Shown: one piece after another, positions 8,703-64,000 of the stretch | How positions within the stretch are numbered: position 1 is the first letter of the stretch | Layout of the letters: each line of letters starts with the position of its first letter | Notes under the pieces: generated by a model | What the model saw: the letters and a program-made list of their open reading frames with translations, nothing else | Told to the model about the DNA's origin: nothing | The model's database searches: none | Translations under genes and position numbers: made by a program | NCBI GenBank assembly: GCA_951406725.2 | Contig: OX597817.1 | Location: forward strand, 56,110,001-56,174,000 | From: Octopus vulgaris | Taxonomy: Eukaryota | DNA length: 64,000 nucleotides | Reading direction: 5' to 3'

Positions 8703-9275
8703 GCTCGGAAAAGTACACACACACACATGCATACACACACACAATGAGATTCCTCTGTACACATTTCATATTGCGTATGTGTGTTTGTGTGTGTATATAT
8801 ATGTATGTATGTATGTACGTATGTATGTATGTATATTACATATGTACATGTACTGTTACCAAAAGCCTGGATGCATGGTTTTCAGTTATTCCATTAATGA
8901 AAAGTGCATTACATGTACGTTTTATAGTATTTATTTTCCCTATATTCCTATATAATTATATTACTTTCTCTACACATCCGATGTCATAGGCCAAGCAGTT
9001 TTCATGGGTTTCCACCGCTGGACTTAAACCCTCCAGTCCCCGTTCTTTTAAGTTCCATAATTTCTCATTCTTTTTGTTGTTTGGTGTTAACTTTTCGTTC
9101 CCAAATTTGGATTTCGAATTTAGGCACAAGGTCAACAAAATCAGGGGAGAAGCTAAGTTGATTATATCGACATCCCAACGTTCAACTGGTGCTTTTTTAT
9201 CGACCTCGAAAGGGTGAAAAGCAAAGTCGACCTCGGCGGAATTTAATCTCAGAACGTAACGGCAGACGAAATACC

Positions 9276-9509
9276 TATTTCTTTATTACCCACAAGGGGC
9301 TAAACACAGAGAGGACAAACAAGGACAGAAATGGGTATTAAGTCGATTACATCGACCCCAGTGCGTAACTGGTACTTATTTAATCGACCCCGAAAGGATG
9401 AAAGGCAAAGTCGACCACGGCGGAATTTAATCTCAGAACGTGACGGCAGACGAAATACCGCTAGGGATTTCGCCCGGCGTGCTAACGTTTCTGCCAGCTC
9501 GCCGCCTTA
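9276..9509 (-). mobile_element. SINE group 1 variant with a Tx1-like 3' tail, nested in another group 1 copy (host 9110-9275 and 9510-9552)
   Basis: Full head and core. 14-bp TSD GCrGACGAAATACC at 9262-9275 and 9510-9523. Confidence 0.9.
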
Positions 9510-10410
9510 GCGGACGAAATACCGCTAAGCATTTTACCGGTCGCGCTAACGTCTCTGCCATCGCGTCGCCTATTTCTTTCCCAAACATGTTCATGGGAAG
9601 AGGTTTTATCTTCTAATTACGGAGATGATCCAAGTCCATACAAGATTTCCGGTTAACATTCATGAGACTTTAACCACATTTACATATAGTCTGTCGAACG
9701 TTCCCTTGTGGTATTTTCTCTGACATAGAACTGCGTGTGTCTTACTCTTTTTCAACGACAATATATATATATTTCTAGTTAAATCTTTAAGCCTCCACGC
9801 ATTAAATACTTTCATACTAACTCATATATTTCTGAAATATAATTAAGTGAAATATAATCCCACTTTTTCCTTAAATTTCTGTTTTCTGAAACTCATTGCC
9901 ATTTTCTCTTCTGCTGACCTATAATATTCACTCATTTGAGCTTTCTATTCTTCCACATCATTTCGATTTTTAGGGCCTTTTTTTCCTTCTTTATAATCGC
10001 TTATGCTACAGTAGTGGACTCAGGTGTTGTTTGAGACAAAATTTCATCAAATATGTTGTTTTTTTTTTGCTGTTGTCGTTGTTCTTGTGGTTGTTACTGT
10101 TTAGTTCTGTTCGAGCTGTCTGTACTTAAAGGCGTTCCAGTTATAACCTCTCCATTATAAAACAACGAAAGGGTAAAAGGAGAATTGGGGATTTTATGAG
10201 GGGTGATATTTCTGTCGGAATGAGTAATCCCAAGGTGACCACCTCGTTGACATAAACTCGTTATTCATAAAAAACAAAGCTTTTAAAAATTATTTCTTCA
10301 AATCTTTCGAAAACCTGATCCTAGTCACCGTAAACGTTCAACAACTGTTAACGCATCATCCATCAGTTACCTCTGATCTTATATTTACAGAATTCTTTGT
10401 ACCATTAATA

Positions 10411-34529: not shown

Positions 34530-35428
34530 TGTTTCTTTATTAGCCACACAGGGCTGCACACAGATAGAACAAATTACAAGGTAGAGCTTTTCTTTTGAGG
34601 GTAAAAAAAGGAGAGTGGTGGTTTTCGATCAAAAGGGATCGTAAAAGGAAAGAAAAAGGACAAAAAAAAGGGAGGGGTTAAAAAAAGGGGGGGAGAGAAA
34701 AAAATAAAAATAAAAAATAAATAATAATAGGGATCGTTATCACAGAAATGTCAATATGAAGTGTAAAGGGGAGGACAGGTGAGGTTTACCCGTGGAAAGA
34801 AAAGCCTACGGAAAAGACCACGGTAACCTCGGTCAATGAAGTCACATGTTATATTTCTTTTTTTTTTTTTTGCAAATAAGCAACTCTCTGTATTAATTTT
34901 TATGGTTCATAGAATCATAGTCAAGGTGGCTTCGTCATTCATACGTGCCATCCTTGCTACATTCACCCATCTTTTTTTAAAACATTCACTAGACAAAACT
35001 TGCCTCTCTACTCTCACTTTCCTCTTCAAGTGATACTTGAAGAAGTTGATGAGAGATTGACCAGAGAGGAAAGTGTTTGTCTCTAATCCTTTCAGGCGCG
35101 TCCACCAGATACATTCTTTCGCCATAGCCACAAGTATGATAAAAATAGCTCTTCCTTCCAGTTTGAAGGAAGGAGGTGTGACGATATTAACGATAGACTC
35201 GGCTGATAAACTGACACGTCCCACACGTGACAGCAGTCGTTCGACATAAGCCCACAGGTCGGAAATTGCTGGACACTGCACGATTGCGTGCAGAGCGGTT
35301 TCGTCGCTCTGCCCGCATCTCGGGCAGGTCGGCCCCGTGTTTCTCGAGCCATGCCTATAGAGCTTATCCCGAACGAGTAGCGCTTCTCGGTAGCACCGCC
35401 AGGCCAGGGATCTCTGGAAATTATCCAT
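34530..35428 (-). mobile_element. Tx1-clade LINE 3' end: ORF2 C-terminus with CCHC zinc knuckle plus 3' UTR
   Basis: FQRSLAWRCYREALLVRDKLYRHG...CPRCGQSDETALHAIVQCP...LW, stop at 34907. The pyrimidine-rich 3' UTR ends AGCC-CTGTGT-GGCT-AATAAAGAAACA. (GATA)n lies on both sides. Confidence 0.88.
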
Positions 35429-35515
<87 letters not shown>

Positions 35516-35776
35516 TGTTTCTTTGTTGGCCACACAGGGCTGAACACAGAAGGGACAAAATACAAAGTAGGGCTTTTCTTTTTGGGAAGAGAAGGAAAGA
35601 GAACAAAAAAAAAGAATAAAAGGGAGGGTAGAAATTCAATCAAAAGGGATCGTTAAAAAACAAAAAAAAGCCGATCAATAGGGATCGTGTATCTGGCCAC
35701 ACATGGCTGAACACAGAGAGGACAAAATACAAAGTAGGGCTTTTCTTTTTGGGAAGGAAAGAAAAAAAGGGGGAGT

Positions 35777-62880: not shown

Positions 62881-62941
62881 TTAAAAGATATAGATGTACA
62901 CATACACATTATACAATGACTAATATATCGAAAGAAACAAG

Positions 62942-63010
<69 letters not shown>

Positions 63011-64000
63011 GGGCGGTAGTGGCACCGCGGTACTTTTTCACAAGAGTCTGGATCTCAAAGTAAGGACAATATTCGTAGACCCGGAGGGTAGACTGGTCGT
63101 CCTGGATGTCGACGGCAGCAATGGGTGCGCTTTTCGACTCGTATCAGTCTACGCACCGCCCTTAACAGGTCGGGCGGATTTCTTTCAACGTCTAGAAGTA
63201 TTCTTGGGAACGTCTCGTCCTTTACTCTTAGTGGGGGATTGGAATGCTACCTTGGACACGCATGTAGACTACGTGGGTAGAGATAGGAATAGACGGGGAT
63301 GCAAATGCCTCAGAGACCTGCTCAGACGCTTTCAACTGTCTCGACAGGTTCCGACTAGACCACCCGAATGCGCCAACGTGGACATGGAGCAACCGCATCG
63401 GGTCGTCGAGATCGTATCTAGATAGGATACTGTGTAGGACAGTAGACAGAGATAGCATAGGATGTCCACAATTCCACATAGTCAGCTACACGGATCACAA
63501 ACTTGTGACATGTACGCTAGACTTAGGTAAGACACTTAGGCAGGGTCCAGGATACTGGAAACTAAACGCGTCTTTCCCATCGAGACAGGTTTTCAGAGAC
63601 CGGATTAGCACACTAGTAAAGAGGGCTTTGACGGGAGCCATCATCAACAACAAATGGTGGTTTGCCCTCAAGAGAGCAGTAAAAAGCAGAAGCGATTAGG
63701 TACAGCAAAGCACTAGCCATAGATAGAAATAGAGTAGAGGGTGAGCTAGTTAAGAAGCTAGAAGAGGCAATTAGAAGCGGTATCGTATCCGACGTTTTGG
63801 CGGCGAGGTTGGCCCTCGACCAACACTTCAACGCCAAACACGAAGGATGTGCTGTAAGAGCTAGGATGCGTGCTCTAAGGAACGAAGGTGTTGGAGCCGC
63901 GAGAGAGGCCCGGGTGGCAGAGGCGCAACAGGGCAACAAAGCCACCATTCGGTCCCTGGTAGATGAACAGGGGCGCGAATTGCTCGAGCCAAGTAAAATG
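63011..64000 (+). mobile_element. Tx1-clade (L1-like) LINE ORF2, 5'-truncated within the APE endonuclease, running off the window
   Basis: GTAVLF...DPEGRLVVLDV...VSVYAP...LVGDWNATLD, then across a frameshift (~63342) WTWSN...SYLDRIL...YTDHKLV...GPGYWKLNAS. A second frameshift lies at ~63685. The 5' junction abuts (TCTA)n at 62942-63010. Confidence 0.9.

What the first reader, a model, noticed from the sequence alone, without database searches (positions are those of the whole stretch)
9262..9523. SINE carrying the 3' tail of the Tx1 LINE, inserted into a copy of its own family
Seen: this SINE has the group 1 head and core but a different tail. Its last 44 nt (plus strand TATTTCTTTATTACCCACAAGGGGCTAAACACAGAGAGGACAAA) match the Tx1 3' end at 34530 at 36/44 without gaps. 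They also share AACACAGAGAGGACAAA exactly with the Tx1 variant at ~35709. The SINE sits in the same orientation inside another group 1 SINE, with a 14-bp TSD (GCrGACGAAATACC). Known: SINEs borrow LINE machinery through shared 3' tails, and Tx1-clade endonucleases are often sequence-specific (Xenopus Tx1L targets another mobile element, Tx1D). Inference: this is a Tx1-mobilised SINE subfamily whose target is a fixed site (GGTATTTCGTC) in the SINE itself. Each insertion would then carry a new target, giving a self-seeding system. There is only one example in this window.
Basis: partly seen in the sequence, partly recalled or inferred. Interest (0 to 1): 0.78.

Follow-up and report, generated by a model that had tools for sequence, protein, structure and literature searches.

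The report
Self-targeting SINE with Tx1 tail
A very abundant short mobile element, likely copied by a Tx1-type retrotransposon whose tail it shares, sits in about half of cases at one exact base inside copies of its own family, building head-to-tail 184-base arrays, likely because its RNA matches the target rather than because the enzyme cuts only there.

Summary
Observation confirmed, and it is genome-wide. The Tx1-like tail has 71,131 exact copies, and 22,985 are exactly joined to the SINE core start GGTATTTCG. In an unselected sample, 56 of 100 tails (47 of 85 loci) sit at that site. These are real insertions into older copies. Rare two-headed loci carry host-specific TSDs, downstream units are twice as diverged, and TSDs around arrays are host-aged. 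The window's two-headed form is the exception, 4 of 98 arrays; usually one head precedes (core+tail)n. The matching Tx1 lands in (TATC)n (5,678 ends, 0 at GGTAT), no LINE with the exact tail was found, and 42 of 100 tails sit elsewhere, at a loose DRTAT motif. Best model: a loosely specific Tx1 nick plus RNA/cDNA-target homology, as in R2 (inferred). Some units arose by local duplication or conversion, including part of the window locus. I found no description in the ten literature searches run; the scan noted only looser LINE-in-SINE cases in other genomes.

The parts
9460..9509 (-). Head of the inner (inserted) SINE, with an A-box-like motif (box consensus recalled, not tested)
   Evidence: head module
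9341..9459 (-). Core of the inner SINE; starts with the target site GGTATTTCG and holds a B-box-like motif; carries a locus-private variant at 9426-9434
9276..9340 (-). Tx1-like tail with a predicted GCCC/GGGY hairpin; the element ends sharply at AAAGAAATA
9510..9523 (-). Upstream copy of the 14-bp target duplication (host-derived)
9262..9275 (-). Downstream copy of the duplication = start of the host core; one CpG transition versus the upstream copy; may be insert-homogenised
9524..9571 (-). Head of the old host SINE (78% identical to the inner head)
   Evidence: HHCTC chain
9106..9261 (-). Rest of the host: first ~55 nt of core look young and share the private variant (9242-9250); the remainder is old, ending in the old-type tail
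9573..9585 (-). 5' copy of the host SINE's own TSD
   Evidence: 12/13 match to 9093-9105
9093..9105 (-). 3' copy of the host SINE's own TSD
34530..35428 (-). 5'-truncated Tx1-type LINE (ORF2 C-terminus with zf-RVT 34907-35428, then 3' UTR), flanked by (TATC)n on both sides
35516..35776 (-). Two further Tx1 3'-end fragments of a variant subfamily in the same (TATC)n tract; contains the shared 17-mer at 35710

Best explanation
A SINE subfamily with a Tx1-like tail, likely copied by a Tx1-lineage LINE protein, sits at one exact base inside older copies of its own family in about half of its insertions, likely because a loosely specific nick is backed up by RNA and cDNA pairing with the homologous target. 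Steps: (1) Shown: the element is head (~50 nt) + core (119) + tail (65) and ends at AAAGAAATA; outside SINEs it has 10-18 bp TSDs that start at a loose DRTAT motif, which the family's own core start fits. (2) Inferred: Pol III reads through the unit (no TTTT in it), so RNA from arrayed copies carries the target sequence right after the tail and primes well at core starts. (3) Shown: young units lie in front of old cores at loci whose outer TSDs are host-aged. (4) Inferred: the cDNA of the head anneals to the host head and replaces it, giving one head + (core+tail)n + host rest with no visible TSD; only occasionally is the 5' end joined non-homologously, giving the two-headed form seen in the window. 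(5) Each added unit supplies a new site and a new read-through template. Local duplication and conversion then lengthen and homogenise some arrays (shown for a minority).
For: Fixed junction: 121 of 139 tail-core joints are exactly TAGG+TATTTCG (sample partly selected for joints); 56 of 100 unselected tails; 21 of 31 tails followed by a SINE module in 564 kb of random DNA. A motif alone is not enough: 47 loci at the SINE site versus 11 tails at non-SINE GGTAT, though core starts are 79 against 825 GGTAT per 564 kb, roughly 40-fold (two different samples, rough); antisense GGTAY site 1,231 versus 22,985. Host pre-existed: terminal group-1 units 0.062 diverged versus 0.032 for the unit before, older in 22 of 26 pairs and younger in 3, p=1e-4; solo group-1 0.067. 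Outer TSD mismatch 0.159 (old-ended arrays, n=28) versus 0.079 (solo T, n=53) and 0.188 (solo old, n=32) (holds in two other settings). True TPRT at the same base: two-headed loci with host-specific bases in both TSD copies (L231, L233, L234, L239, L243, L245, L254, L259, L260). Head is donor-like at position 22: A in 31/49 versus 46/67 solo T and 13/60 solo old, p=1e-5. RNA-side GGTAT: where TSD copies differ in the first five bases, the 3' copy has the GGTAT base 12 times, the 5' copy 2 times, 9 other (p=0.013). Flank follows the RNA: the Tx1 with the near-same tail uses TATC.
Against: No LINE with the exact tail was found, so the true partner and its enzyme specificity are unknown; best match 37/42 to an older Tx1 copy. 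The antisense control differs at base +5, so it is not a clean motif control. The first TSD-age test was inconclusive (0.056 versus 0.048 and 0.067); the likelihood version was designed afterwards and could be inflated for group-1 ends. Young 5' tracts in the host core, expected from long read-through pairing, are rare: 3 of 34 versus 1 of 51. Hosts of two-headed loci are more diverged overall (0.074 vs 0.042, p=4e-4) but not among non-T hosts. A donor signature next to the nick is intermediate (6/50 vs 18/68 solo T and 3/65 solo old; neither difference significant). In arrays ending in a T unit, first and last units are equally old (14 vs 16). No RNA data and no empty orthologous site were obtained.
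Confidence: 0.58

Rival explanations
1. One reading: an unseen or extinct Tx1 has an endonuclease (or a tether to Pol III factors bound on SINEs) specific for the SINE site. Insertions are first two-headed with a TSD, and the two heads later collapse by recombination.
For: Two-headed loci with true TSDs exist at exactly this base (49 exact matches). Tx1 families often target other elements (PMC4494074 passages). At least two Tx1 families with related tails and different repeat flanks occur here, so a third is possible.
Against: 0 of the Tx1-A ends at GGTAT versus 5,678 at TATC; no LINE with the SINE tail; 42% of tails outside the site with only a loose motif. Collapse by one crossover should leave the 5' half of the head mostly host-like, but position 22 is donor-like. 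The 15 youngest entries of the non-targeted array list include only one two-headed chain.
Confidence: 0.2
2. Arrays are made mainly at the DNA level: tandem duplication, unequal crossing-over or conversion between the core repeats, or re-integration of 184-bp circles, after a few founding insertions.
For: Neighbouring units share 55 of 284 rare variants versus 20 of 1,418 in controls; long arrays are homogeneous; the window's two cores share a near-unique variant; L151 shows a permuted, duplicated host segment. SINE-derived satellites are known in reptiles (PMC10702118 passages).
Against: Duplication cannot put a young T unit and a young head in front of an old group-1 core at so many separate loci. 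About 80% of rare variants are not shared, and units within short arrays often differ at subfamily sites. The junction always matches the retro-insertion end AAAGAAATA.
Confidence: 0.12
3. Composite copied as a unit: a dimeric master, or reverse transcriptase switching from an old SINE RNA at the core start to the 3' end of a T-tail RNA, inserts head-core-tail-core-old tail in one event at a fresh site.
For: Single, donor-like head; TSD flanks the whole array; shared variants between units; one locus ends 28 nt into the second core with a TSD right after (C1:1207124).
Against: Terminal units are as diverse as solo old copies (pairwise 0.116 vs 0.125; nearest neighbour 0.073), which excludes one master. 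Outer TSDs are host-aged. The same base is a DNA target in two-headed loci.
Confidence: 0.1

Closest known systems
SINEU / Tx1-Mar of crocodilians (Kojima 2015, PMC4494074; passages and section 20 read)
   Same: A SINE mobilised by a Tx1-clade LINE with strong preference for one site in another repeat (SINEU-3 90%, SINEU-1 23% next to Mariner-N4_AMi).
   Different: There the SINE and LINE share the target, and the target is a DNA transposon. Here the target is the SINE's own family, the matching LINE uses (TATC)n, the link is a shared 3' tail, and insertions fuse to one head.
Kibi/Koshi-type microsatellite-targeting Tx1 and Xenopus Tx1L (as described in PMC4494074; primary papers not held or not read)
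   Same: The LINE here is APE-RT-zf, groups with Xenopus Tx1 and is confined to a microsatellite.
   Different: The repeat is (TATC)n; a second family ends in (ATT/ATC)n. No named Kibi, Koshi or Keno sequence was compared.
R2 insertion aided by flanking target homology (Eickbush 2000; Fujimoto 2004; seen only as cited sentences and titles in PMC4494074; papers not held)
   Same: RNA that carries target sequence strengthens site-specific integration, and homology can complete the 5' end.
   Different: R2 is an autonomous element with a restriction-like endonuclease in rDNA. Here a non-autonomous SINE would use homology to its own dispersed copies.
Tandem SINE multimers (jerboa Dip/B1) and SINE-derived satellites of squamates (PMC10702118 passages)
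   Same: A large share of copies in head-to-tail arrays; 150-180 bp units with a leading SINE part.
   Different: Dip multimers are full-length units, and squamate satellites are ascribed to duplication. Here units are headless, begin at one base and end at the LINE-derived 3' end, in front of older hosts.

Membership tests
Tx1 clade (the LINE) | ORF2 with APE endonuclease, RT and C-terminal zinc finger | tested here: met
   1152-aa frame in 6 of 6 long copies; PF03372, PF00078, PF13966
Tx1 clade (the LINE) | RT phylogeny with Tx1 rather than other L1-group clades | tested here: inconclusive
   Groups with Xenopus Tx1 and fish elements against plant L1-like rows, 99/99 (all 38 rows used), but no mammalian L1 or named Keno/Kibi references were in the tree, which is midpoint-rooted
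Tx1 clade (the LINE) | Target preference (>20% of flanks one sequence, Kojima's criterion) | tested here: met
   29 of 30 3' ends and 6 of 6 5' ends in TATC repeats
LINE-partnered SINE | 3' tail shared with a LINE | tested here: met
   Scores 49, 60 and 49 against Tx1-A, an older Tx1-A copy and Tx1-B; 0 of 500 shuffles each
LINE-partnered SINE | Dispersed non-coding copies with TSDs | tested here: met
   71,131 exact tails; TSD in 36 of 58 solo copies, control 2%
tRNA-derived SINE (SINE2) | tRNA-related head with Pol III A and B boxes | tested here: inconclusive
   Box-like motifs seen by eye against recalled consensus; ARAGORN 0 genes in the window; no tRNA family in Rfam on L234
SINEU/Tx1-Mar-type shared-target pair | SINE and partner LINE prefer the same target | tested here: not met
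   Tx1-A: 5,678 ends at TATC, 0 at GGTAT; exact partner not found
True dimeric SINE (Alu-like composite master) | Both units the same age and uniform across loci | tested here: not met
   Terminal units twice as diverged and as diverse as solo old copies
Named octopus SINEs OR1/OR2/OK or Repbase/Dfam entries | Sequence identity to the deposited consensus | not testable with these tools
   No repeat library on hand; OR1 seen only as a named CORE-SINE in PMC4824008 passages

The most novel reading that the evidence does not exclude
The SINE RNA acts as its own guide and repair template. It redirects a Tx1 protein that by itself lands in (TATC)n to one base in dispersed SINE copies, and is integrated with homology at both ends, replacing the host head. 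This is a natural, self-amplifying, RNA-programmed targeted insertion that has hit tens of thousands of loci and seeds satellite-like arrays.
Probability: 0.3. Interest if true: 0.82.

Novelty: new variant of a known kind. Interest (0 to 1): 0.6.

Why it matters
It is a high-copy natural case in which the RNA cargo, not only the endonuclease, appears to set where a LINE protein inserts: near-identical tails, different flanks for LINE and SINE. That question is usually studied in R2/R1-type rDNA elements and matters for retrotransposon-based insertion tools. It also gives a direct route from a dispersed SINE to 184-bp tandem arrays and a harm-limiting 'insert into yourself' strategy. Nested pairs provide an internal clock for SINE subfamilies in this genome. 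Repeat annotation would likely split or mislabel these arrays as many SINE families or satellites.

Tried and rejected
Search for the exact partner LINE: Tx1-type upstream plus SINE-type tail gave 0 matches. Tail without the normal SINE upstream gave 501 matches; of 30 loci, 27 had SINE core or head directly upstream and none had ORF2. Of 77 ORF2 C-terminal hits in held DNA, none was followed by a SINE-type tail without a core (hits not deduplicated). These probes are exact-match or sample-based, so an old or rare partner is not excluded. Empty-site test with public runs: contigs of four runs on L013 were swamped by paralogues and its flanks proved repetitive, so no orthologue could be read; the test on a second locus was not obtained. 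No RNA holder was listed, so expression is untested. Score-threshold TSD ageing was inconclusive. Ribozyme or tRNA origin of the cut site: no meaningful Rfam match. Group-1 tail versus Tx1 ends: not significant (123-219 of 500 shuffles reach it); the oldest tail type does match Tx1-B (1 of 500). RTE-type insertion signature (PMC6007223, abstract only) was considered, but the tail matches Tx1; an upstream T-stretch was not tested. Literature: ten searches ran and none showed this SINE-Tx1 link or the self-targeting. PMC13282606 (first third read, plus passages) lists families without it; its supplements, Repbase, Dfam and Ohshima & Okada 1994 were not seen and may already hold the consensus. 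PMC4758252 and PMC4824008: passages only.

Full report
Setting. The window is G000:C4:56110001-56174000 in a 2.8-Gb genome. It is octopod-like by inference: the closest named ORF2 relative is from Argonauta hians, 65% identical. I did not identify the assembly.

Observation. The nested structure is as described. On the minus strand: host TSD, old host head (9571-9524, 78% identical to the inner head), 14-bp repeat (9523-9510), full inner SINE (9509-9276), second repeat copy (9275-9262), host core and old tail, host TSD (9105-9093). The tail match is 36/44 (35/44 in my one-base-shifted window), and the 17-mer lies at 9303 and 35710. The similarity exceeds all 500 shuffles for three Tx1 ends. 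One detail was missed: both cores share a variant whose 24-mer occurs only 13 times genome-wide, and the first ~55 nt of the downstream core look young while the rest is old. So this locus was partly homogenised with the insert, at or after insertion.

Scale. The tail 29-mer has 71,131 exact matches, control 0; tail plus GGTATTTCG has 22,985 (slightly different tail span, so not a strict ratio). Of the first 100 exact tails on contig C1, 56 run into the sense core, 1 into a second site in the head, 1 into the antisense core and 42 elsewhere; 47 of 85 loci have a tail-core joint. In 51 random stretches (564 kb including the window), 21 of 31 SINE tails are followed by a SINE module. The joint is exact in 121 of 139 cases (sample partly chosen for joints). 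The usual form is one head followed by 184-bp core+tail units, often ending in a group-1 or older unit, with up to 11 units. Single-headed arrays outnumber two-headed ones 94 to 4; an exact two-head pattern finds only 49 loci, a lower bound. In contigs of four runs from four coded organisms the tail was covered, and joints going back 184 bases were seen.

Are they insertions? Yes, for arrays ending in old units. In two-headed loci an old head and host-specific TSD flank a young insert; the insert is younger than the next unit in 18 of 22 pairs and older in 2. For single-headed arrays, terminal group-1 units are 0.062 from their own consensus, against 0.032 for the unit before them and 0.067 for solo group-1 copies, and are as diverse as solo copies. 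That excludes one composite master. A first TSD-age test was inconclusive. A likelihood version designed afterwards gave mismatch 0.159 for old-ended arrays (n=28), 0.188 for solo old (n=32), 0.079 for solo T (n=53) and 0.073 for T-ended arrays (n=34), after dropping 137 elements for truncation, low complexity or unclear ends. Two other settings kept the order. The host was therefore most likely in place first. Against a pure insertion story, neighbouring units share 55 of 284 rare variants versus 20 of 1,418 in controls, and first and last units of T-ended arrays are the same age. Local duplication or conversion accounts for part of the arrays.

The LINE. The fragment at 34530-35428 belongs to a young family with a 1152-aa APE-RT-zf frame that groups with Xenopus Tx1 in an RT tree with limited references. 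It sits in (TATC)n: 29 of 30 3' ends and 6 of 6 5' ends, with 5,678 exact ends at ATATCT and 0 at AGGTAT. A second, older family (about 40-60% protein identity) has a related tail and ends in ATT/ATC repeats. The SINE tail is equally near both families (score 49 each) and nearest an older copy of the first (37/42). No LINE with the exact tail turned up. Tx1 mobilisation is well supported by tail, predicted hairpin and TSD size, but the exact partner is unidentified.

Target choice. At 53 non-SINE sites with a TSD, the upstream copy starts with a loose D-R-T-A-T (G25/T15/A12, G26/A22, T36, A36, T28). The core start fits this, which explains the exact base. It does not explain the frequency: 47 loci at the SINE site against 11 tails at other GGTAT sites, when core starts are about a tenth as common as GGTAT, is roughly a 40-fold excess (rough, two samples). 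The antisense GGTAY site gets 1,231 exact joints, about half of them in SINEs (5-6 of 10 loci), though it differs at +5. Where TSD copies disagree in the first five bases, the downstream copy has the GGTAT base 12 times, the upstream copy 2 times, and 9 are neutral (p=0.013). This fits RNA that reads on past the tail; the unit has no TTTT. The single head is donor-like at position 22 (31/49, versus 46/67 solo T and 13/60 solo old) but intermediate next to the nick, and long young tracts in host cores are rare (3 of 34 versus 1 of 51).

Mechanism. Shown: fixed element end, loose motif, fixed joint, older hosts, host-aged outer TSDs, mostly one head. Inferred: Tx1-lineage protein; nick at the motif; priming helped by read-through RNA; 5' end completed by cDNA annealing to the host head. 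Precedent for target-flanked RNA strengthening integration comes from R2, which I saw only as a cited sentence and titles in PMC4494074. I put this at 0.58, a site-specific enzyme or Pol III tether with later head collapse at 0.2, mainly DNA-level duplication at 0.12 and RNA-level composites at 0.1.

Comparison and novelty. It works like SINEU/Tx1-Mar (PMC4494074, passages) but fails the shared-target test and targets itself. It resembles jerboa SINE multimers and squamate SINE satellites (PMC10702118, passages) but with headless units at one base. Ten searches showed no description; repeat databases, supplements and subscription papers were not seen, so the family itself may be named. The scan's notes had no look-alike sequence and only looser analogues by words. 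Verdict: real, genome-wide, a new variant of a known kind; interest 0.6.

Noticed in passing
L132, L135, L136 (Tx1 5' UTR): The Tx1 5' UTR holds a perfect hairpin with GCCCCTTGTGGGC, identical to the hairpin in one SINE tail variant and closer to it than the LINE's own 3' hairpin. It may be a protein-binding motif at both LINE ends, or the source of the SINE hairpin.
   Followed up: partly
L136:3635-3779: A 5'-truncated T-tail SINE sits inside ORF1 of a young Tx1 copy with a 7-bp TSD starting TATC, the LINE's own motif; the empty site is seen in sister copies.
   Followed up: partly
L150:7520-8900 and L192-L220: A second, older Tx1-like family ending in ATT/ATC repeats; its 3' end matches the oldest SINE tail type (1 of 500 shuffles), suggesting this SINE lineage changed Tx1 tails more than once.
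   Followed up: partly
C1:1551347, C1:1819572, C1:1903497, C1:3791001, C1:59052 (merged loci); L188: A second, minor fixed insertion site in the head (tail joined to AGAA[A/T]CGTTAG), again with a single upstream head.
   Followed up: partly
L143 and L173: Two independent T-tail SINEs lie at the same GGTATTG site of another, unidentified repeat.
   Followed up: no
L131-L136: Long Tx1 copies share ORF2 but carry two different ORF1/5' regions (L131 differs from L132-L136 upstream of a common junction), hinting at ORF1 swapping.
   Followed up: no
window 62934-64000 (+): Another Tx1 ORF2 fragment (N-terminal part) at the end of the window, continuing into L142.
   Followed up: no
L139 (G000:C1:4676000-4678200): An 11-unit homogeneous array with 185-187 bp period ending in a group-1 unit, on its way to a satellite.
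   Followed up: partly
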